Source of the DNA: Wenjunlia vitaminophila DSM 41686
GTDB taxonomy: Bacteria; Actinomycetota; Actinomycetes; Streptomycetales; Streptomycetaceae
NCBI RefSeq assembly: GCF_000380165.1
Contig: NZ_KB904735.1
Coordinates: 116,721 to 180,720, forward strand
Length of the DNA: 64,000 nt
Direction of reading: 5' to 3'
Of the stretch, positions 4,290-59,163 are shown piece by piece. Position numbers and translations under genes: made by a program. Each line of letters starts with the position of its first letter. Positions within the stretch are counted from its first letter, which is position 1. The notes under the pieces were generated by a model. It searched no databases and was not told the origin of the DNA. It saw only the letters and a list, made by a program, of their open reading frames with translations.

Positions 4290-4554
4290 CGCGTGCGGGG
4301 CGCGGCGAGATGACCGGACCCCTCCGGGACCCACCGCGGGCACGCCCCGGGGCCGCGCCCCGGCGAGCGCGAGCCACGTCGGGCGCAGCCGAAGCACCTT
4401 CTCGGTGAGCGCCCTGCCCCCCTCGATGAACTCCTCGGGTGAGAGCTCGTCGGCCCGCGGTCGCCCGGCGCAGACGTTGGTCAGGCCCAGGCCCAGGCCG
4501 AGACCGACCAGTTCGCCCTGCTCGTCCGATCGCATCAGCAGGGGGTGAAGCCAG
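4290..4554 (-). pseudogene. mug: C-terminal remnant of G/U-mismatch DNA glycosylase (mug), multiply frameshifted
   Basis: The translation (P)LLMRSDEQGELVGLGLGLGLTNVCAGRPRADELSPEEFIEGGRALTEKVLRLRPTWLALAG aligns with the E. coli Mug middle region ([51 protein letters not shown]). The expected VLPNPSG-like C-terminus is only recoverable in another frame (RWVPEGSG). Confidence 0.55.
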
Positions 4555-4565
4555 AGCGGTGCATA
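4543..4565. repeat. left junction motif GGGTGAAG-N9-TGCATA of the low-GC insertion
   Basis: The same GGGTGAAG and TGCATA words recur at 6653-6666. Both flank the two mug fragments. Confidence 0.4.
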
Positions 4566-4660
4566 TGTACCCGACCTTCTGTCCACGAACTCAAGCCCAC
4601 TCACGGGGTGGATCTGGAAGACTCCTGCGCGGTACCTAGCTGACATCAGTCCAGGGACGC

Positions 4661-6238
4661 TTGAGGGGGCAGGGAGCCGCTGTGGAATGGATCTCCATCG
4701 TTTTGATCATTCTGGTGGTGCTGGTCCTCATCACCTTGGTCAAGGCGATCCATGTCATTCCGCAGGGCAGCGCCGCCATCGTGGAACGTTTCGGCCGCTA
4801 CACCCGCACCCTCAACGCTGGCCTGAGCATCGTTGTCCCGTTCATCGACAAGGTCGGCGACCGCATCGACCTCCGTGAGCAGGTCGTCCCCTTCCCATCG
4901 CAGCTCGCGATCATCCAGGACAACCTGGTCGTTGATATCGACACCGTCGTCTACTACCAGGTGACCGATGTCCGCGCTGCGACCTACGAAGTCGCCAGCT
5001 ACATCCAGGCGATCGAGCAGCTCACTGTCACCACGCTACGCAGCGTCGTCGGTGGCATGAACCTCGAACGAACCCTCACCTCGCGGGAGGAAATCAACGC
5101 GACCCTGCGCGGCGTCCTCGACGAGGCCACCGGCAAGTGGGGCATCCGCGTCAACCGCGTCGAACTCAAGGGCATCTTGCCGCCCACTTCCATCCAGGAC
5201 TCGATGGAGAAGCAGATGCGCGCCGATCGTGACAAGCGCACCGCGATCCTCACCGCCGAAGGCGAGAGGCATGCCGCGCTGTTGAAAGCGGAAACCGAAC
5301 GCGACGTGGCCACCATCCTCGCTGGAGGGAGCGGAGCGATGCGCGGGATACCGCAGTCGCCCGTCCAGGCCGGTCCCACACCTGGACATCAGCCGTTGCT
5401 GCAGGACGATCCTCGCCGCGTCGGCCGTTACCACCTGACGGCTCGGCTGGGCCAAGGGGGGATGGGGACGGTCTATCTCGGCCAGTCCCCCGGGCAGCGC
5501 CTGGTCGCGGTCAAAGTCATCCGGTCGGAGTTCGCTACGGACCCAACATTCCGAAAGCGGTTCGCCCGCGAGATCGAAGCCGTACGCCGTGTCGGCGGCT
5601 TCCACACCGCGCCAGTGGTTGATGCCGACCCCCACGGCGACCCGCCCTGGCTGGCGACCGAGTACATCCCCGGCCCGTCACTGCACGACGTCCTCGGGCA
5701 GCAGGGTGCCCTTCCCCCAAGGACCCTGCAGACCCTCGCTGTCGGTATCGCCGAAACGCTCGAAGGCATCCACGCCCGCGACATCATCCACCGCGACCTC
5801 AAACCCAGCAACATCATCATCTCTAGCTCAGGTCCTCGCATCATCGACTTCGGCGTCGCCCGAGCCCTCGACGGCACCGCACTTACCCGTACCAACTACG
5901 TCATCGGCACACAGGGGTTCCTCGCTCCGGAACAGCTCACCGGTGCGTCGATCACGCCTGCCGCGGATCTCTACGCCTTCGGCATGGTGCTGTGCCATGC
6001 CGCGGGAGCCACGCCGCTCACCGGCAGTGAATCCCTTGAGTCCGCCCTCAGTCTGTTGCCCTCTCGGTTCGTCGGCGTTATCACCCGGTGCCTCGATCAT
6101 GACCCGAGCCACCGTCCGACGCCCACCGAGGTGCTCGAACTGCTCTCCCAGAACGATGCATCATCCGAAGACTGGCTGCCGATTCCGGTACGCACGATGG
6201 TCGACCTGTACAACGCCCCTACTGTCTCGGCACCTTGA
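4661..6238 (+). CDS. SPFH/band-7 (stomatin or flotillin-like) domain fused to a Hanks-type Ser/Thr protein kinase domain; N-terminal TM anchor
   Basis: Residues 1-230 contain a TM helix WISIVLIILVVLVLITLV and an SPFH core (IVERFGRY..., EAETERDVAT). From about 250: Gly loop LGQGGMGTVY, VAVKVI, HRDLKPSNI, DFGVA, GTQGFLAPE. All catalytic kinase motifs are intact. Local GC is about 60 % against about 72 % in the flanks. Confidence 0.8.
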   Translation: MRGQGAAVEWISIVLIILVVLVLITLVKAIHVIPQGSAAIVERFGRYTRTLNAGLSIVVPFIDKVGDRIDLREQVVPFPSQLAIIQDNLVVDIDTVVYYQVTDVRAATYEVASYIQAIEQLTVTTLRSVVGGMNLERTLTSREEINATLRGVLDEATGKWGIRVNRVELKGILPPTSIQDSMEKQMRADRDKRTAILTAEGERHAALLKAETERDVATILAGGSGAMRGIPQSPVQAGPTPGHQPLLQDDPRRVGRYHLTARLGQGGMGTVYLGQSPGQRLVAVKVIRSEFATDPTFRKRFAREIEAVRRVGGFHTAPVVDADPHGDPPWLATEYIPGPSLHDVLGQQGALPPRTLQTLAVGIAETLEGIHARDIIHRDLKPSNIIISSSGPRIIDFGVARALDGTALTRTNYVIGTQGFLAPEQLTGASITPAADLYAFGMVLCHAAGATPLTGSESLESALSLLPSRFVGVITRCLDHDPSHRPTPTEVLELLSQNDASSEDWLPIPVRTMVDLYNAPTVSAP

Positions 6239-6632
6239 GCCAAGTATGTGCTCGACACCTCCAGTTCAGAGAAGCCTGCATCGCCCGATGCTTCAGATCA
6301 ATCCGAAAATGCTCGCGTGTCCGGATGAATTGGAGGAAGATCTTCAGGCCAGGTGAAAGAGGGCGGAGAGCGAGAAGTGGCTCGGTGAGTCGACGGCATC
6401 ACCTGACATTGACGTTCCTGCGCGCCAAGCGTGACGAAGCCCAACGGTTCCACCGCCGTGGCCCTGTCGATCTTGGCTTGCCGCACCCACGGCCTCCGGA
6501 GGCATGATGACCACCTCAACCAACCTGCCAACACCCCAGCCGTGCAGACGCTACCCGGGCACCGGACTCGTGATGCCTACTGTCGACCAAGCTCGTTGAG
6601 CAGGCCCACAGCTCAACTCATTCTGGAACGAT

Positions 6633-6828
6633 CAGTAAGTCGTCACTCGTCCGGGTGAAGTGCATAGGTGCAGGGTCGGCCAGAACCGGTTGCCCCGCCG
6701 GGCGAAGTGGTGGCCGGTGGCCGCGGACCACAGACCGGTGTTGATCCCGCAGAACAGCACCCGGAGCCCGGGGCCAGGACGTCGGGGATGACCTGGTCAC
6801 GGGCCGCGGCCAGCACCTCGGGGCCCAT
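6633..6828 (-). pseudogene. mug: N-terminal remnant of mug (G/U-mismatch DNA glycosylase) with a frameshift
   Basis: [23 protein letters not shown] then a -1 shift gives [32 protein letters not shown], matching the E. coli Mug N-terminus (DILAPGLRVVFCGINPGL...NRFW). The remnant ends at a stop right at the insertion junction. Confidence 0.6.
6653..6666. repeat. right junction motif GGGTGAAG-TGCATA of the low-GC insertion
   Basis: Direct repeat of the words at 4543-4565. Original mug sequence resumes immediately after it (ggtgcagggtcggccag = ...LHL codons). Confidence 0.4.
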
Positions 6829-6911: not shown

Positions 6912-8345
6912 TCACAAGATGGCCCCCGGCACGTACCTGGAGGCCTCCGGGTGGCTGGCGGTGACCTGCTCGATCCGCTCCAGCACGGCCGCGACCTGCG
7001 CCGCCGCGGCACCGGTGAACGACAGTCGGTCCGCCATCAGCGCGCCCAGGGCGGACCGGTCCAGCGGGATGCGGTCGTCCTCGGCGAGCCGGTCCAACAG
7101 CTCGTTGTGCTGGACGCCCTTCTCCCGCATCGCCAGCGCGGAGGCCACCGCGTGCTCCTTGATCACCTCGTGGGCCTCCTCCCGGCCCACCCCGGCCCGC
7201 ACCGCGGCCATGAGGACCTTGGTGGTGGCCAGGAACGGCAGGTACCGGTCGAGCTCCCTGGCGATCACGGCCGGGAACGCCCCGAACTCGTCGAGGACCG
7301 TCAGGAACGTCTCCAGCAGGCCGTCCAGCGCGAAGAAGGCGTCCGGGAGCGCGACCCGGCGCACCACGGAGCAGGAGACGTCACCCTCGTTCCACTGGTC
7401 CCCGGCGAGCTCCCCGGCCATCGAGGCGTAGCCCCGCAGCACCACGGCGAGGCCGTTGACCCGTTCGCAGGAGCGGGTGTTCATCTTGTGCGGCATCGCC
7501 GAAGAACCCACCTGGCCCGGCTGGAAACCCTCGGTGACCAGCTCGTGCCCGGCCATCAGCCGGATCGTCCTGGCGATCCCGGACGGGGCGGCGGCGAGCT
7601 GCACCAGGGCGCTCAACACGTCGAAGTCCAGGGAACGCGGATAGACCTGGCCCACCGAGGTCAGGGTCCGGGCGAAGCCGAGGTGCTCGGCCACCCTGCG
7701 CTCGAGCTCGGCGAGCCGCCCCAGGTCCCCGTCGAGGAGGTCCAGCATGTCCTGGGCGGTGCCGACCGGACCCTTGACGCCGCGCAGCGGATAGCGGTCG
7801 ATCAGCTCGGTGAGCCGTTCGAACGCCACGAGCAGCTCGTCGGCGCCGGTCGCGAACCGCTTGCCCAGGGTGGTCGCCTGCGCCGCCACGTTGTGCGACC
7901 GGCCCGCCATCACCACCTCGGCGTGCTCGGCGGCGAGGCACCCGAGCCGGGCGAGGACCGCCACCACCCGGTCCCGCACGTGCTCCAGGGACAGCTTGAC
8001 CTGCAACTGCTCGACGTTCTCGGTCAGGTCCCGGGAGGTCATGCCCTTGTGCACCTGCTCGTGGCCGGCCAGGGCGTTGAACTCCTCGATGCGGGCCTTG
8101 ACGTCGTGGCGGGTGACCCTCTCCCGCTCCGCGATCGAGTCCAGGTCGACGGCCTCGACGACGCGTTCGTAGTCGGCGACCGCACCGTCCGGCACCGTCA
8201 CCCCGAGGTCCGCCTGTGCGCGCAGGACGGCCAGCCACAGGCGGCGCTCGAGGACCACCTTGTGCTCGGGGGACCACAGGGTGATGAGCTCGGCCGAGGC
8301 GTAACGGCTGGCCAGGACGTTCGGGATGCGGGGCTTTGAGGTCAC
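6912..8345 (-). CDS. purB: adenylosuccinate lyase
   Basis: Fumarate-lyase superfamily signature GSSAMPHKMN, 477 aa, typical PurB N-terminus MTSKPRIPNVLASRYAS. Confidence 0.9.
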   Translation of the reverse strand: MTSKPRIPNVLASRYASAELITLWSPEHKVVLERRLWLAVLRAQADLGVTVPDGAVADYERVVEAVDLDSIAERERVTRHDVKARIEEFNALAGHEQVHKGMTSRDLTENVEQLQVKLSLEHVRDRVVAVLARLGCLAAEHAEVVMAGRSHNVAAQATTLGKRFATGADELLVAFERLTELIDRYPLRGVKGPVGTAQDMLDLLDGDLGRLAELERRVAEHLGFARTLTSVGQVYPRSLDFDVLSALVQLAAAPSGIARTIRLMAGHELVTEGFQPGQVGSSAMPHKMNTRSCERVNGLAVVLRGYASMAGELAGDQWNEGDVSCSVVRRVALPDAFFALDGLLETFLTVLDEFGAFPAVIARELDRYLPFLATTKVLMAAVRAGVGREEAHEVIKEHAVASALAMREKGVQHNELLDRLAEDDRIPLDRSALGALMADRLSFTGAAAAQVAAVLERIEQVTASHPEASRYVPGAIL

Positions 8346-34307: not shown

Positions 34308-36449
<2,142 letters not shown>

Positions 36450-47375: not shown

Positions 47376-48765
<1,390 letters not shown>

Positions 48766-48851
48766 TCCGGCTCGGACAAGCATCGGAATTTCCCTAGATC
48801 AATTGACTTGCACCCACCGTGAAGCCGGATGACTCTGTGTGGAGGACTTCT

Positions 48852-48864
48852 GGCGTGAAATCCG
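48852..48864. repeat. 13-mer GGCGTGAAATCCG (copy 1) in the low-GC region far upstream of rpf
   Basis: An exact second copy lies at 49057-49069. GGAATTTCCC/GGAATTCCCG words also recur (48784, 49003). Confidence 0.35.
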
Positions 48865-49056
48865 TTTCGAGGCGAGTGAGCCCATTGATGCACCTGGAGA
48901 TTTGTCCGAATAGATCAGTCATAGCGAAGAATGCGGCGTGAGTTGTGTCACGGAACCGCCGGCATCCCTCCGGCGTCCGGAGATCATTTGTTGTTGCCGC
49001 TCTCGGAATTCCCGCTGTTCCACCAGGTATTTGACGGGATGCCAAGGGAGTCGGCC

Positions 49057-57009: not shown

Positions 57010-58843
57010 GGATGCGTTCTCCCTGGCGGATCAGTGACGGGGCGGCGGGGGACCGGTCGCCGCGGCGCCGGTCGGCGAGCAGCGAGCCCCACCACAGGAA
57101 CAGCGGGACGAGGGTGATCACCAGGGCGAGTCCGGCCCAGGTGAGCATGGCGGCGTGGGTGTGGTCGAGGACGAACGCGGCGGTGATCGCGGAGCTGAAC
57201 ACCACGGTCCAGAACAGGTGGATCCGGAACGTGGACAGTCGGTCCGGGCTGGCCGAGTCCCCCTTGGGGGTGACCACGAAGCGGCTGGGGCGGCGGAGCA
57301 GGGCGGCGCTCAACGACTTGGCGTAGATCGGCGCGGACAGGGCGGACATCACCATGCCGGCCGCTCCCGTGGAGCCCTGGGGTTCGTGCGGGCTGACGTT
57401 GTACCTGCGGTTCCACATGTACAGCCCGATCTGGAGGGCCGCCGCGTCGCCGTAGAGCATCATCCAGATCTCCGAGGGGATGTGCACCCCGGAAGCGCCC
57501 AGACCCAGGAACAGCACGCAGGACAGGCCGCCGAGCAGCCAGTTCAGGGCGGACATCGGGTAGTAGACGACCAGCAGCGAGTAGTTGAGCAGCTTGCCGG
57601 GCGGCAGGGTGAGGGCCGCGCGCCAGAACTGCCACAGCAACGTCTCGAAGGTGCCCCGGCTCCACCGCAGTTGCTGGGTGAAGAAGTCGGTCCAGGCCGA
57701 GGGGCCCTCCCCGACGGCGAGGACGTCCGGGGTGTAGACGGAGCGCCAGTGGCGGCCGGTGGCCGGGTTGCGGTGGCGGTGGATCTCGATGCCCGTGGCC
57801 ATGTCCTCGGTGATGGAGTCGTAGAGGCCACCCACGTCCTTCAGGGCGCGCACCCGCACGCAGTTGTTGGTGCCGACGAACATCGCGCCGCCGTAGGCGT
57901 TGCCGGCCCGCTGGATCAGCCCGTGGAACAGGAACTGCTGGCTCTCCGCGCCCTTGGTGACGGCCCGGTCGTAGTTCCCGTACACCTGTGGCCCGACCAC
58001 GAAGGCCACGTCCGGGTCGCGGAAGTAACCCAGCATCCGCTCCAGGTACTCCGGCAGTGGAACGTGGTCGGTGTCCACACAGGCGATGAACTCGTAGTCG
58101 TCACCGTGCGCGTCCAGCCAGGAGTTGTAGTTGCCGTGCTTGGTCCGCGCGCGGAACCGGCCCGCGGGCTGGTTCCACTTGGCCACCCCCTTGCGGGTGA
58201 AGTGGTGCACCCCGAGCCTGGCGCAGAGCTTCTTGGCCTCCGGGTCGTCACCCTCGTCCAACAGCCAGACGTCCAACGGGCCGCGGTGCCGGATCCTGAC
58301 CGCTCCCTCGAGGGTGGCCCGGAGCATCTCGATGGGCTCCTTCCCGGGCACGAACGAGGTGAGGAAGGCCACTCTGGTGCCGGTCTTGGGGACCACGGGA
58401 ACGGGGTCGCGGGCCATCAGGGTGGCGTGCGCGTTGGAGATCACATTGATGAGACGAAACGTTTCGATCAGACCGATCGACACGAGCATCACGTAGTCGC
58501 AGCAGACCATCCAGGTCGGGGCGTACTCCCGGTGCACCCAGTGTCCGGGCAACATCAACCACACCAGCAGGAGCAGGGAGAACACCGGCGCCGCGACCAA
58601 CAGCACCACCGCGCGGACGCCGTGCCGCCGACGGGACAGCAGCCGCCGGTGACGGACCCGGTAAGGAACGTCCGGATCGGGTTCGGTCAGCGGACCGGCG
58701 AGCCTGGCGTAACGCTCGTAGTCGTAGGCCGGCCCCGAGGTGGACGCGGGTGCCGGCTCCTGGCGGTGCTTGCCCGCCAGGCGAACAAGGCCTCCTCGGT
58801 CCTCCTCCGCCTGGTGCTTGACGCTGTTCGGTGAGGTTGCCAC
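56978..58843 (-). CDS. cslA: cellulose-synthase-like family-2 glycosyltransferase (CslA-like), membrane bound
   Basis: GT2 motifs (DxD region DTDHV, QxxRW as QQLRWSRG) with N- and C-terminal TM helices. Confidence 0.8.
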   Translation of the reverse strand: MATSPNSVKHQAEEDRGGLVRLAGKHRQEPAPASTSGPAYDYERYARLAGPLTEPDPDVPYRVRHRRLLSRRRHGVRAVVLLVAAPVFSLLLLVWLMLPGHWVHREYAPTWMVCCDYVMLVSIGLIETFRLINVISNAHATLMARDPVPVVPKTGTRVAFLTSFVPGKEPIEMLRATLEGAVRIRHRGPLDVWLLDEGDDPEAKKLCARLGVHHFTRKGVAKWNQPAGRFRARTKHGNYNSWLDAHGDDYEFIACVDTDHVPLPEYLERMLGYFRDPDVAFVVGPQVYGNYDRAVTKGAESQQFLFHGLIQRAGNAYGGAMFVGTNNCVRVRALKDVGGLYDSITEDMATGIEIHRHRNPATGRHWRSVYTPDVLAVGEGPSAWTDFFTQQLRWSRGTFETLLWQFWRAALTLPPGKLLNYSLLVVYYPMSALNWLLGGLSCVLFLGLGASGVHIPSEIWMMLYGDAAALQIGLYMWNRRYNVSPHEPQGSTGAAGMVMSALSAPIYAKSLSAALLRRPSRFVVTPKGDSASPDRLSTFRIHLFWTVVFSSAITAAFVLDHTHAAMLTWAGLALVITLVPLFLWWGSLLADRRRGDRSPAAPSLIRQGERILEVPPQPKVP

Positions 58844-58916
58844 AGGGCCTCCGCAGCCAACGGAAACGTACAGTCAGTCGAGCTCTCGGCGACCCATCTG
58901 AAGGAGAATGAGAAGG

Positions 58917-58929
58917 TCACGTAGCGTGA
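58917..58929. promoter_or_regulatory. TCAC-N5-GTGA palindrome (BldD-box-like) in the AT-rich cslA upstream region
   Basis: TCACgtagcGTGA lies 75-87 nt upstream of the cslA start and fits the loose TNAC-N5-GTNA pattern. Inference only. Confidence 0.2.
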
Positions 58930-59163
58930 AATGTCGCATTTGCCCGATTGGTAGGTAAAACTAGCAGAGCGGGCAATTGAACTGACGGTCCAACTGCCGG
59001 CGTGGCGTGCCGCCGAACTCCGGCACCGGACCGGCCCGACGGGCGGCACGGGTGCTCGGGTCCGGCGCGAAGTGGGTGCCCGCCCGCGGTCACTGCCGGG
59101 TCGCGGGTGCCGCCGCGACGACCGGGCCCCGGTCCTGGGGACCGGGGGCCACCGCACGGGGGT

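What the first reader, a model, noticed from the sequence alone, without database searches (positions are those of the whole stretch)
4661..6238. Membrane-anchored SPFH(band-7)-Ser/Thr kinase fusion protein
A single 525-aa ORF joins an N-terminal TM helix and stomatin/flotillin-type SPFH domain (through ...KAETERDVATILAGG) to a complete Hanks-type kinase domain with all catalytic motifs (GQGGMGTVY, VAVK, HRDLKPSN, DFG, APE). The SPFH C-terminal coiled-coil/EA region is missing and there is no extra sensor domain. I am not aware of this architecture being described. It suggests a kinase targeted to membrane microdomains. The gene lies on lower-GC DNA (about 60 % against about 72 % in the flanks), so it is probably horizontally acquired.
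Basis: seen in the sequence. Interest (0 to 1): 0.75.

Follow-up and report, generated by a model that had tools for sequence, protein, structure and literature searches.

The report
Horizontally acquired SPFH–kinase fusion gene
This is a real, conserved but unstudied gene of Streptomyces-family bacteria that joins a membrane-scaffold (stomatin/SPFH) module to a Ser/Thr protein kinase; here it sits on a scrap of mobile DNA that split a DNA-repair gene, and current RefSeq annotation often hides the fusion by calling only the kinase half.

Summary
One uninterrupted ORF encodes a TM helix, a QmcA-type SPFH domain, a 46-residue coiled-coil stub, a disordered linker, a complete Hanks kinase and a conserved C-terminal helix. 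The likely start is GTG 4682, giving 518 aa, identical to GenBank KRV49791.1 of Wenjunlia vitaminophila.

It is not an assembly chimera. About 30 clusters in Streptomyces, Kitasatospora, Yinghuangia and Wenjunlia share the architecture, including complete genomes. Both halves are under purifying selection (dN/dS 0.16-0.45).

It is foreign DNA. The gene lies in a 2,104-bp, 63% GC insert (flanks 73-74%; GC3 0.80 vs 0.92) that splits a Mug glycosylase pseudogene and also carries an integrase remnant and an IS5-family end fragment.

The fusion lacks the CC2/cap region that closes SPFH cages, and it lacks the NfeD partner. So "microdomain targeting" is plausible but unproven.

My best reading is a cytoplasmic kinase tethered and clustered at the membrane by a p-stomatin-derived module, possibly by co-assembling with the resident p-stomatin.

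I found no paper describing the architecture. RefSeq truncates several members to "kinase only". It is a new variant of known kinds, of moderate interest.

The parts
4682..6238 (+). SPFH-kinase fusion gene (518 aa; GTG start, TGA stop).
   Evidence: ORF. 100% identical to KRV49791.1. Start aligns with the MEP... start of homologues; SD AGGGAG at 4671-4676.
4688..4747 (+). N-terminal transmembrane anchor (aa 3-22).
   Evidence: Hydrophobic run WISIVLIILVVLVLITLV; helix 3-22 in the AlphaFold model with pLDDT about 90. Aligns with the QmcA TM.
4754..5266 (+). SPFH/Band 7 domain, QmcA (p-stomatin) type (aa 25-195).
   Evidence: Pfam PF01145 E 2e-38. PDB 8z5g QmcA E 4.5e-54, query 8-214 vs QmcA 5-211 of 305. 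86.7% identical to the housekeeping Streptomyces p-stomatin core.
5186..5323 (+). Single long helix (aa 169-214): the retained first part of coiled-coil CC1, ending ...KAETERDVATILAG.
   Evidence: AlphaFold helix 169-214. Aligns with the first EA repeats of the housekeeping protein, then diverges.
5324..5428 (+). Disordered Pro-rich linker plus the conserved pre-kinase motif HQPLLQDDPRRVGRY (aa 236-250).
   Evidence: pLDDT below 50 for aa 215-233. The motif is conserved in SPFH-fused, TM-only and DivIVA-fused relatives.
5429..6139 (+). Hanks-type Ser/Thr kinase domain (aa 250-486): K278, E297, D372, N377, D389, activation-loop T402/T404, APE 415-417.
   Evidence: Pfam PF00069 E 8e-39. PknB structures E about 3e-35. 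Catalytic residues invariant in 23 relatives. Confident fold.
6167..6208 (+). Conserved C-terminal tail EDWLPIPVRTMVDL (aa 496-509); function unknown.
   Evidence: Conserved across the whole kinase clade. Predicted helix 501-514. dN/dS about 0.2-0.3.
4568..4681 (+). Conserved 5' leader, with the box GGGGTGGATCTGGAAGACTCCTGCGCGG at 4605-4632; candidate promoter or operator.
   Evidence: Conserved in window, L081/L001, L085 and partly L086. No RNA-structure support: z +1.76, covariation term 0. No Rfam hit.
4564..6667 (.). 2,104-bp low-GC (63.3%) mosaic insert carrying the gene, flanked by GTGCA at 4559-4563 and 6668-6672.
   Evidence: Mug orthologue maps contiguously across the gap. UDG profile positions 2-93 are restored when the flanks are joined. 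GC. Homology to L001 begins at 4569.
6228..6501 (+). Decayed 3' remnant (last ~100 codons; in-frame stop plus frameshift) of a large tyrosine recombinase/integrase gene.
   Evidence: blastn hits to plasmid integrase/recombinase genes. tblastn with the L094 820-aa integrase and the L092 recombinase fragment, E 6e-13 and 2e-12.
6578..6642 (+). Solo terminal fragment of an IS5-family insertion sequence.
   Evidence: More than 20 Streptomyces plasmid copies at 80-87% identity. Conservation stops at the same base in 6 sequences and, in the plasmid copies, continues into a transposase N-terminus. An annotated IS5 transposase starts 10 nt away in L096.
6668..6828 (-). N-terminal part of the interrupted G/U mismatch DNA glycosylase (mug) pseudogene (aa 1-54; frameshift near 6772).
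   Evidence: tblastn with the intact orthologue P0121: 94% identity over aa 20-54. Pfam UDG.
4359..4564 (-). Middle part of the mug pseudogene (aa 53-120; frameshift in the C-run 4541-4546). The last ~70 residues are undetectable.
   Evidence: tblastn; translations; Pfam UDG profile positions 48-93.

Best explanation
The gene encodes a cytoplasm-facing Hanks-type Ser/Thr kinase whose membrane anchor is a truncated p-stomatin (QmcA-type SPFH) module.

Proposed mechanism:
1. The N-terminal TM helix inserts N-out/C-in, as in QmcA. This places the SPFH domain, linker and kinase on the cytoplasmic face, where ATP is available.
2. The SPFH domain and its CC1 stub make lateral SPFH-SPFH contacts, either with each other or, more likely, with the resident full-length p-stomatin, to which the core is 87% identical. 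This concentrates kinase domains at one membrane site.
3. Crowding on a flexible ~35-residue linker promotes trans-autophosphorylation of the activation-loop threonines (T402/T404). SPFH-driven clustering would thus replace the ligand-driven dimerisation of receptor-type kinases such as PknB.
4. Because CC2 and the C-terminal cap are missing, the protein cannot close a cage by itself.
5. Substrates are unknown.

The gene is an accessory, horizontally mobile single-gene module of Kitasatosporales. In this genome it arrived on a mosaic of mobile-element debris that inserted into a mug gene.

Shown: gene integrity, domain content, catalytic-residue conservation, purifying selection, foreign origin, restricted patchy distribution, and absence of a conserved partner gene.
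Inferred: topology, oligomerisation or co-assembly, and activation by clustering.
For: - Intact ORF with both domains. It is identical to a deposited 518-aa protein.
- About 30 homologue clusters, all in Streptomycetaceae and relatives.
- dN/dS is 0.23-0.45 for the SPFH half, 0.24-0.67 for CC+linker and 0.13-0.32 for the kinase. So the SPFH half is maintained, not a decaying spacer.
- The closest solved homologue is QmcA, a 26-chain entry, E 4.5e-54. QmcA's soluble part faces the cytoplasm (PMC10434171).
- The SPFH core is 87% (window) to 95% (P0001) identical to the housekeeping p-stomatin, whose gene sits in an nfeD-SPFH operon. That level of identity is compatible with mixed assemblies.
- All catalytic residues and an activation-loop threonine (T402, 518-aa numbering) are invariant in 23 relatives.
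- The AlphaFold model gives TM, SPFH, long helix, disordered linker and a confident kinase.
- The same kinase clade is also found fused to a DivIVA domain or to a bare TM helix, so its N-terminus is a swappable membrane-association module.
- Foreign origin.
Against: - No experiment or multimer model supports oligomerisation or co-assembly.
- CC2 and the C-terminal cap, the parts most important for SPFH cage assembly (PMC12624060), are absent.
- TM-SPFH-GFP of QmcA loses its punctate localisation (PMC10434171).
- Some lineages have deleted the CC stub (Kitasatospora type), carry a very divergent SPFH (36% to the housekeeping protein), or have no SPFH at all (TM-only). This suggests simple tethering may be enough.
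- No NfeD partner or any other conserved neighbour was found.
- I could not check whether this organism has a resident p-stomatin, because only 64 kb is available (one search shows none in the window).
- Expression and the translation start are not shown.
Confidence: 0.5

Rival explanations
1. Simple tether. The SPFH part is only a leftover membrane anchor and spacer. The protein acts as a monomeric (or kinase-dimer) membrane-tethered cytoplasmic kinase, with no link to SPFH assemblies or microdomains.
For: - There is a deletion series within the family: two EA repeats, one repeat (this gene), none (Kitasatospora type), and TM-only relatives whose TM helix (MEPLLLVVVAF...) resembles the SPFH anchor (MEPVIIVLVIL...).
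- CC2 and the cap are missing.
- The QmcA TM-SPFH truncation loses its foci (PMC10434171).
- The SPFH half evolves faster than the kinase half.
Against: - The SPFH core is still under purifying selection (dN/dS 0.23-0.45) in all pairs compared.
- It remains 87-95% identical to the housekeeping protein in several lineages.
- A 170-residue folded domain is costly if only a spacer is needed.
- TM-only relatives are a more distant kinase subclade (54-61% identity), so the direction of change is uncertain.
Confidence: 0.3
2. Conflict or defence module. It is a single-gene, horizontally mobile abortive-infection or inter-bacterial conflict kinase. The SPFH module senses membrane perturbation (for example phage entry or lysis proteins) and the kinase then phosphorylates host or phage targets.
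For: - Patchy accessory distribution, foreign GC and association with mobile-element scars.
- In one lineage it lies beside Vsr/HNH/DUF6551 or UvrD-helicase/MZB genes and an Imm10 immunity gene. Relatives sit near transposases and recombinases.
- PADLOC PD-T4-6 and mad6 kinase models hit at E 1e-49 to 1e-56.
Against: - The PADLOC hits cover only the generic kinase domain (aa ~245-455) and have no curated cut-off, so any Hanks kinase would hit.
- Most contexts are not defence-like: GNAT, LysR, PucR, transglutaminase.
- No phage or plasmid record carries the fusion.
- dN/dS shows ordinary purifying selection, not diversifying selection.
Confidence: 0.12
3. Artefact or dead gene. The junction would be an assembly or sequencing error, or the ORF would be a decaying chimera in which only the 299-aa kinase annotated by RefSeq is real.
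For: - RefSeq annotates only a 299-aa kinase for this organism (WP_322888008.1).
- The neighbouring mug gene shows frameshifts, so the region contains decayed sequence or homopolymer errors.
Against: - The same junction sequence (...ETERDVAAILAGG...HQPLRxDDPRR...) occurs in many independent assemblies, including complete genomes.
- The frame is open throughout here and in L085, L086 and L091.
- The SPFH half and the linker are under purifying selection.
- The original GenBank record calls the 518-aa protein.
Confidence: 0.02

Closest known systems
E. coli QmcA / prokaryotic p-stomatins (SPFH1 subfamily; PDB 8z5g QmcA-YbbJ 26-mer)
   Same: Single N-terminal TM helix followed by an SPFH domain and the start of CC1. 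E 4.5e-54 over QmcA residues 5-211. The direct parent is the conserved Streptomyces ~320-aa p-stomatin, 87% identical in the core.
   Different: It lacks QmcA residues ~212-305 (the rest of CC1, CC2 and the C-terminal cap). It has no adjacent nfeD gene, whereas the parent has one. It carries a kinase instead.
PknB-type bacterial Hanks (eukaryote-like) Ser/Thr kinases; AfsK is the best NCBIfam model
   Same: Complete catalytic core with invariant K, E, HRD, N, DFG, APE and an activation-loop threonine (T402). The AfsK model matches the kinase domain at E 1e-71.
   Different: - The order is reversed: the membrane anchor is N-terminal and the kinase C-terminal.
- There is no extracellular sensor (PASTA, PQQ propeller).
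- The AfsK score of 243 bits is far below the 1300-bit cut-off.
- It has clade-specific pre-kinase and C-tail motifs.
Flotillin-dependent signalling platforms (B. subtilis FloT/FloA microdomains harbouring the sensor kinase KinC). This comparison rests on my own knowledge, not on a test here.
   Same: Concept: an SPFH scaffold and a signalling kinase acting together at one membrane site.
   Different: There the scaffold and kinase are separate proteins, the kinase is a histidine kinase, and the scaffold is a full flotillin. Here the link is covalent, the kinase is Hanks-type, and the scaffold is truncated.
StlP (SCO2834), the stomatin-like organiser of hyphal-tip microdomains in Streptomyces (PMC11920096)
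   Same: A cytoplasm-facing SPFH protein of filamentous actinobacteria.
   Different: StlP has a 100-aa disordered N-terminus, a two-helix hairpin and its SPFH domain at aa 209-311. It is a different paralogue from the single-TM p-stomatin parent of this fusion, and it has no kinase.
DivIVA-kinase fusion of the same kinase clade (WP_084719133.1, Streptacidiphilus carbonis)
   Same: Kinase about 67% identical over the kinase half, with the same pre-kinase motif and C-tail; the N-terminus is again a membrane-associating scaffold module.
   Different: The N-terminal module is a DivIVA N-domain (PF05103, E 3.8e-10) rather than TM+SPFH.

Membership tests
SPFH / Band 7 superfamily, p-stomatin (QmcA, SPFH1) type | SPFH (Band_7) domain detectable by profile | tested here: met
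   PF01145 E 2e-38, 132.6 bits vs cut-off 23.6. QmcA 8z5g E 4.5e-54.
SPFH / Band 7 superfamily, p-stomatin (QmcA, SPFH1) type | N-terminal membrane anchor directly before the SPFH domain | tested here: met
   Hydrophobic aa 3-22, helix in the model. Aligns with the QmcA N-terminus.
SPFH / Band 7 superfamily, p-stomatin (QmcA, SPFH1) type | Full CC1-CC2-C-terminal region that builds the closed oligomeric cage | tested here: not met
   Only a 46-residue helix (aa 169-214) remains. The match to QmcA stops at residue 211 of 305, and the alignment with the housekeeping protein diverges after the first EA repeats.
SPFH / Band 7 superfamily, p-stomatin (QmcA, SPFH1) type | Operon partner NfeD | tested here: not met
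   No NfeD gene next to the fusion in the window or in L081-L086. The housekeeping parent has NfeD immediately upstream.
SPFH / Band 7 superfamily, p-stomatin (QmcA, SPFH1) type | Forms high-order oligomers or membrane foci | not testable with these tools
   No multimer prediction or experiment is available. The literature on a truncated QmcA argues against autonomous foci (PMC10434171).
Hanks-type (eukaryote-like) Ser/Thr protein kinases | Protein kinase domain with the catalytic residues (VAVK Lys, alpha-C Glu, HRD Asp, Asn, DFG Asp, APE) | tested here: met
   PF00069 E 8e-39. K278, E297, D372, N377, D389 and APE 415-417 are present and invariant in 23 relatives.
Hanks-type (eukaryote-like) Ser/Thr protein kinases | Phosphorylatable activation-loop Thr residues | tested here: met
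   T402 and T404 lie in ...ALTRTNYVIGT...; T402 is invariant (T197 numbering). Their alignment with PknB T171/T173 is from my own knowledge.
Hanks-type (eukaryote-like) Ser/Thr protein kinases | Catalytic activity | not testable with these tools
   Needs an in vitro autophosphorylation assay.
Receptor-type bacterial STKs (PknB/Stk1: N-terminal kinase, TM, extracellular sensor) | Kinase-TM-sensor order with an extracytoplasmic ligand-binding domain | tested here: not met
   The order is TM-SPFH-kinase. No PASTA or other sensor domain was found. NF033483 scores 189 bits vs a cut-off of 450.
AfsK | Reaches the NCBIfam equivalog cut-off; C-terminal PQQ propeller | tested here: not met
   NF053615 scores 242.7 bits vs a cut-off of 1300, covering the kinase domain only. 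PQQ-bearing relatives are separate proteins.
Single-gene defence kinases (PD-T4-6, MADS Mad6, BREX PglW) | Specific match beyond the generic kinase core, and consistent defence-island context | tested here: inconclusive
   PADLOC hits are restricted to aa ~245-455. NCBIfam MAD6 scores 93 bits vs 460 and PglW 35 bits vs 990. Context is defence-like in one lineage only.
Autonomous mobile element (IS / integrative element) | Intact transposase or integrase plus defined, conserved ends | tested here: not met
   Only a ~100-codon integrase remnant and a ~65-nt IS5-family end are present. The insert termini are not conserved in other genomes. The GTGCA duplication may be a target-site duplication or microhomology.

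The most novel reading that the evidence does not exclude
The fusion may be a natural 'Rosetta stone' linking p-stomatin cages to Ser/Thr phosphosignalling. On this reading, the truncated SPFH module is an adaptor that slots into the host's resident QmcA-like/NfeD assembly as a hitch-hiking subunit and delivers a kinase that switches on when clustered there. The same kinase clade swaps this adaptor for a DivIVA domain (cell-pole scaffold) or a bare TM helix. It would therefore be a horizontally mobile family of scaffold-hitch-hiking kinases that plug into whichever conserved membrane scaffold the new host already has.
Probability: 0.2. Interest if true: 0.72.

Novelty: new variant of a known kind. 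Interest (0 to 1): 0.5.

Why it matters
What bacterial SPFH/stomatin assemblies do is still largely open, and whether they act as signalling platforms is debated. A covalent SPFH-kinase fusion that is maintained by selection gives a direct, testable link between a p-stomatin scaffold and Hanks-type phosphosignalling in antibiotic-producing actinomycetes. It is also a compact system for asking whether scaffold-driven clustering can replace ligand-driven dimerisation in kinase activation.

There is a practical point as well. Current RefSeq annotation truncates several members, including this organism's, to 'serine/threonine-protein kinase' of about 300 aa. Domain-architecture surveys will therefore under-count the family.

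The locus is also a clean example of cargo-gene acquisition: one gene with mobile-element scars inserted into, and inactivating, a DNA-repair gene (mug).

Tried and rejected
- Assembly chimera or two-gene origin: rejected.
- Equating the SPFH half with StlP (SCO2834): rejected after reading PMC11920096; the topology and domain position differ.
- Structured 5' leader RNA or riboswitch: no Rfam hit, fold less stable than shuffles (z +1.76), covariation term 0.
- Defined transposon with conserved ends: the 7-bp imperfect inverted repeat (TATGTAC/TATGCAC) at the insert ends is not present at the homology boundary in other genomes.
- Carriage on phages or plasmids: no full-length hit. The best is a fragmentary, unannotated match on a 2.8-Mb Streptomyces replicon.
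- Conserved partner gene (NfeD, FHA, phosphatase): none in six contexts.
- Defence assignment through PADLOC: the hits are generic kinase-domain hits.
- Recent gene conversion of the SPFH half from the resident paralogue: dS is equal in both halves between the window and L081 (0.41 vs 0.42). The pattern that every fusion is closer to the housekeeping protein than to other fusions fits a slowly evolving parent plus independent divergence.
- The genome-contig scan returned mostly generic kinases; only L001-L003 were useful.
- Exact look-ups of P0020 and of the 525-aa translation found nothing.
- In the tree, L085full was mistranslated and P0054 was wrongly included. Both were ignored.
- ORFs in 6235-6658 have no Pfam hit.
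Full report
**1. The observation**

The window holds an open frame at 4661-6238 (+), 525 codons from the first in-frame TTG. Pfam finds Band_7/SPFH at aa 32-202 (E 2e-38) and Pkinase at aa 257-493 (E 8e-39), both far above the curated cut-offs. With E-values like these the match is not a chance ORF in GC-rich DNA.

The likely start is GTG 4682, preceded by AGGGAG at 4671-4676. This gives MEWISIVLIIL..., which aligns with the MEP... start of homologues. The resulting 518-aa product is 100% identical to GenBank KRV49791.1, 'hypothetical protein AQ490_19040' of Wenjunlia vitaminophila (Streptomycetaceae).

**2. Anatomy**

An AlphaFold2 model built on a 50-sequence alignment has mean pLDDT 84.6. 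Its parts, in 518-aa numbering, are:
- TM helix, aa 3-22
- SPFH fold, aa 23-166
- one long helix, aa 169-214
- disordered linker, aa 215-233 (pLDDT below 50)
- kinase fold, aa 250-490, with a low-confidence activation loop at 397-405
- C-terminal helix, aa 501-514

The SPFH half is closest to E. coli QmcA (PDB 8z5g, 26 chains) at E 4.5e-54. The match covers QmcA residues 5-211 of 305, so the rest of CC1, CC2 and the C-terminal cap are absent. The kinase half matches PknB structures at about E 3e-35. The NCBIfam AfsK model matches the kinase domain only, at 243 bits against a 1300-bit cut-off. K278, E297, D372, N377, D389, APE and the activation-loop threonine T402 are invariant in 23 relatives.

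A 46-residue stub with about 1.5 EA repeats is retained.

**3. It is a real, conserved fusion**

A search of 5.8 billion proteins found about 25 full-length clusters with both Pfam domains, at 45-83% identity, in Streptomyces, Kitasatospora and Yinghuangia. These include complete genomes such as S. bingchenggensis BCW-1 (contexts). An exhaustive HMMER scan of 1.84 billion representatives added only a few more 50%-identity clusters with the same order of domains. All named members are Streptomycetaceae. The long multi-stretch hits in that scan are tandem-kinase or PQQ-propeller proteins, not SPFH fusions.

The junction sequence is conserved...AEGExxAALLKAETERDVAAILAGG...HQPLRxDDPRRIGRY....

Nei-Gojobori dN/dS between the window gene and seven orthologues is 0.23-0.45 for the SPFH core, 0.24-0.53 for CC+linker, 0.16-0.27 for the kinase and 0.19-0.33 for the tail. 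Both halves are therefore maintained as coding sequence.

**4. Annotation problem**

RefSeq lists this organism's gene as a 299-aa kinase (WP_322888008.1) starting at Met220 of the 518-aa protein, while the original GenBank record has 518 aa. S. milbemycinicus shows the same pair, 520 vs 312 aa. I checked three other 'kinase-only' entries at the DNA level: P0023/L085, P0024/L086 and P0032/L091. All three are uninterrupted SPFH-kinase ORFs with GTG or TTG starts and good Shine-Dalgarno sequences. The family is therefore under-counted in protein databases.

**5. Origin of the two halves**

*SPFH half.* The parent of the SPFH half is the near-universal ~320-aa Streptomyces p-stomatin, whose gene lies directly downstream of nfeD. 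The window's SPFH core is 86.7% identical to it, P0001's is 95% and P0017's is 93%, falling to 49% in P0021. Every fusion is closer to the housekeeping protein than to other fusions. The housekeeping proteins form a tight, short-branched cluster. This fits a slowly evolving parent and faster, independent divergence of the fusion copies. Equal dS in both halves (0.41 vs 0.42, window vs L081) argues against recent gene conversion.

*Junction variants*:
- one or two EA repeats retained (this gene has one)
- a Kitasatospora type cut right after ...ADR
- a divergent type (L003, P0036, P0039) whose SPFH is only about 36% identical to the housekeeping protein

*Kinase clade.* The clade has its own signature: the pre-kinase motif HQPLRxDDPRRIGRY and the C-tail EDWLPPPVRTMVDLH. 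It also occurs with a bare TM helix plus an Arg-rich stretch (Kitasatospora; L089 is genuinely TM-only). It occurs once fused to a DivIVA N-domain (PF05103, E 3.8e-10), next to a serine recombinase and a transposase. The N-terminus thus behaves as a swappable membrane-association module.

**6. Genomic setting: foreign DNA**

The gene has GC 64.6% and GC3 0.80. Thirty-six host-like ORFs in the window have GC3 0.919 +/- 0.025, with a minimum of 0.858.

The flanks on the minus strand are two parts of a G/U mismatch-specific DNA glycosylase (Mug), 70-75% identical to intact ~180-aa orthologues. An intact orthologue maps as follows:
- aa 1-20 at 6828-6770
- a frameshift
- aa 20-54 at 6772-6668 (94% identity)
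- a 2,104-bp gap
- aa 53-60 ('MHRSGFTP') at 4564-4541
- a second frameshift
- aa 60-120 at 4544-4359
- the last ~70 residues are undetectable

The insert (4564-6667, GC 63.3%) is flanked by GTGCA on both sides. It contains:
- a 115-nt leader conserved in four genomes, whose homology to L001/L081 begins at 4569, within 5 nt of the junction
- the coding sequence
- a decayed copy of the last ~100 codons of a large tyrosine recombinase/integrase at 6228-6501, starting exactly where homology to other SPFH-kinase loci ends
- a ~65-nt solo end of an IS5-family element at 6578-6642

Gene context differs in every genome, and there is no NfeD, phosphatase or FHA partner. In S. bingchenggensis the gene lies 78 kb from the chromosome end. 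No phage or plasmid record carries the full fusion. Horizontal acquisition is thus well supported. The insertion mechanism, target duplication or microhomology, is not resolved, and the insert ends are not conserved elsewhere.

**7. How it probably works**

*Shown:* a membrane anchor, a folded SPFH domain, a flexible linker and a catalytically complete kinase, all in one selected ORF.

*Inferred:*
- Topology is N-out/C-in, as for QmcA, whose soluble part faces the cytoplasm (PMC10434171). A kinase needs cytoplasmic ATP.
- SPFH cages are built from SPFH1/2, CC1, CC2 and a C-terminal cap. QmcA forms a 26-mer, and CC2 mutations are the most damaging to assembly (PMC12624060). The fusion lacks CC2 and the cap, so it cannot close a cage alone.
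- A TM-SPFH-GFP truncation of QmcA stays in the inner membrane but loses its foci (PMC10434171).

My best reading (confidence about 0.5) is that the SPFH module tethers and clusters the kinase at the membrane through lateral SPFH contacts, most plausibly by joining the resident p-stomatin assembly. Clustering would then drive trans-autophosphorylation of T402/T404.

The main rival (0.3) is that the SPFH part is only a tether. The erosion series and the TM-only relatives favour that view; continued purifying selection on the SPFH core argues against it. A conflict or defence role (0.12) fits the mobility and one defence-like neighbourhood, but the PADLOC hits are generic kinase hits. An artefact or dead gene (0.02) is essentially excluded.

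**8. Comparison with what is known, and novelty**

It works partly like a p-stomatin and partly like a PknB-type kinase, but it is a full member of neither architecture:
- Against p-stomatins: no CC2 or cap, and no NfeD partner.
- Against PknB-type kinases: reversed domain order and no sensor.
- It is not AfsK.
- It is not StlP, which has a hairpin anchor and its SPFH domain at aa 209-311 (PMC11920096).

Full-text searches for SPFH combined with kinase terms found no description of this architecture. The 2009 survey of prokaryotic SPFH families never mentions kinases. The sequences are in public databases with generic names.

Verdict: a new variant of known kinds, real, conserved, horizontally mobile and uncharacterised. 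Interest is moderate (0.5). It would be higher if co-assembly with the resident stomatin cage were shown.

Noticed in passing
window 4359-4564 and 6668-6828 (minus strand): A G/U mismatch-specific DNA glycosylase (mug) gene is inactivated by the 2.1-kb insert, two frameshifts (near 6772 and in the C-run 4541-4546) and loss of its C-terminal ~70 codons. This strain probably lacks Mug activity, unless the frameshifts are homopolymer sequencing errors.
   Followed up: yes
window 6228-6501 (+): A decayed 3' remnant of a large (~820 aa) tyrosine recombinase/integrase of a type found on Streptomyces linear and circular plasmids. It abuts the stop codon of the kinase gene.
   Followed up: yes
window 6578-6642; L093, L096-L099: A ~65-nt block is conserved (80-87%) in more than 20 Streptomyces plasmids and ends abruptly at ...GATCAGTAA. 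It is the terminal segment of an IS5-family element, present here as a solo fragment.
   Followed up: partly
window 4605-4632; L081 ~7925-7952; L085 ~5280-5310: A strongly conserved box, GGGGTnGATCTGGAAGAnTCCTGCRCGG, lies 50-77 nt upstream of the start codon in four genomes. It shows no RNA-structure signal and is a candidate promoter or operator that travels with the gene.
   Followed up: partly
RefSeq WP_322888008.1, WP_319637773.1; L085 5347-6981, L086 5410-6954, L091 ~4300-5918: RefSeq/PGAP calls only the ~300-aa kinase half of several intact SPFH-kinase ORFs that have GTG or TTG starts. Older GenBank records have the full ~520-aa proteins.
   Followed up: yes
L090 2146-3276 (P0037, Streptacidiphilus carbonis-like contig): A member of the same kinase clade is fused to a DivIVA N-terminal domain instead of SPFH. 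It lies next to a large serine recombinase and a DDE transposase.
   Followed up: partly
L082/L083 1-7800: Upstream of the P0005 fusion gene there is a conserved XRE(HTH_31+DUF5753)-DUF397-HATPase_c_2 (WhiJ-like) trio. Beyond it lie alternative cargo blocks: Vsr/HNH/DUF6551 in one strain and UvrD-helicase/Helicase_C/MZB in another. An Imm10 gene lies downstream. This looks like a variable defence or conflict island.
   Followed up: no
window ~35001-36000, ~48001-49000, ~58001-59000: Three further 1-kb stretches have GC below 0.67 in an otherwise ~73% GC window. They may be other foreign or non-coding segments.
   Followed up: no
plasmid NZ_CP081497.1 2518503-2519344 (hit H1): A fragmentary, unannotated match to the fusion (aa 48-518 in three pieces within 842 nt, 74% identity) lies on a 2.8-Mb Streptomyces replicon. 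It is probably a deleted pseudogene copy.
   Followed up: no
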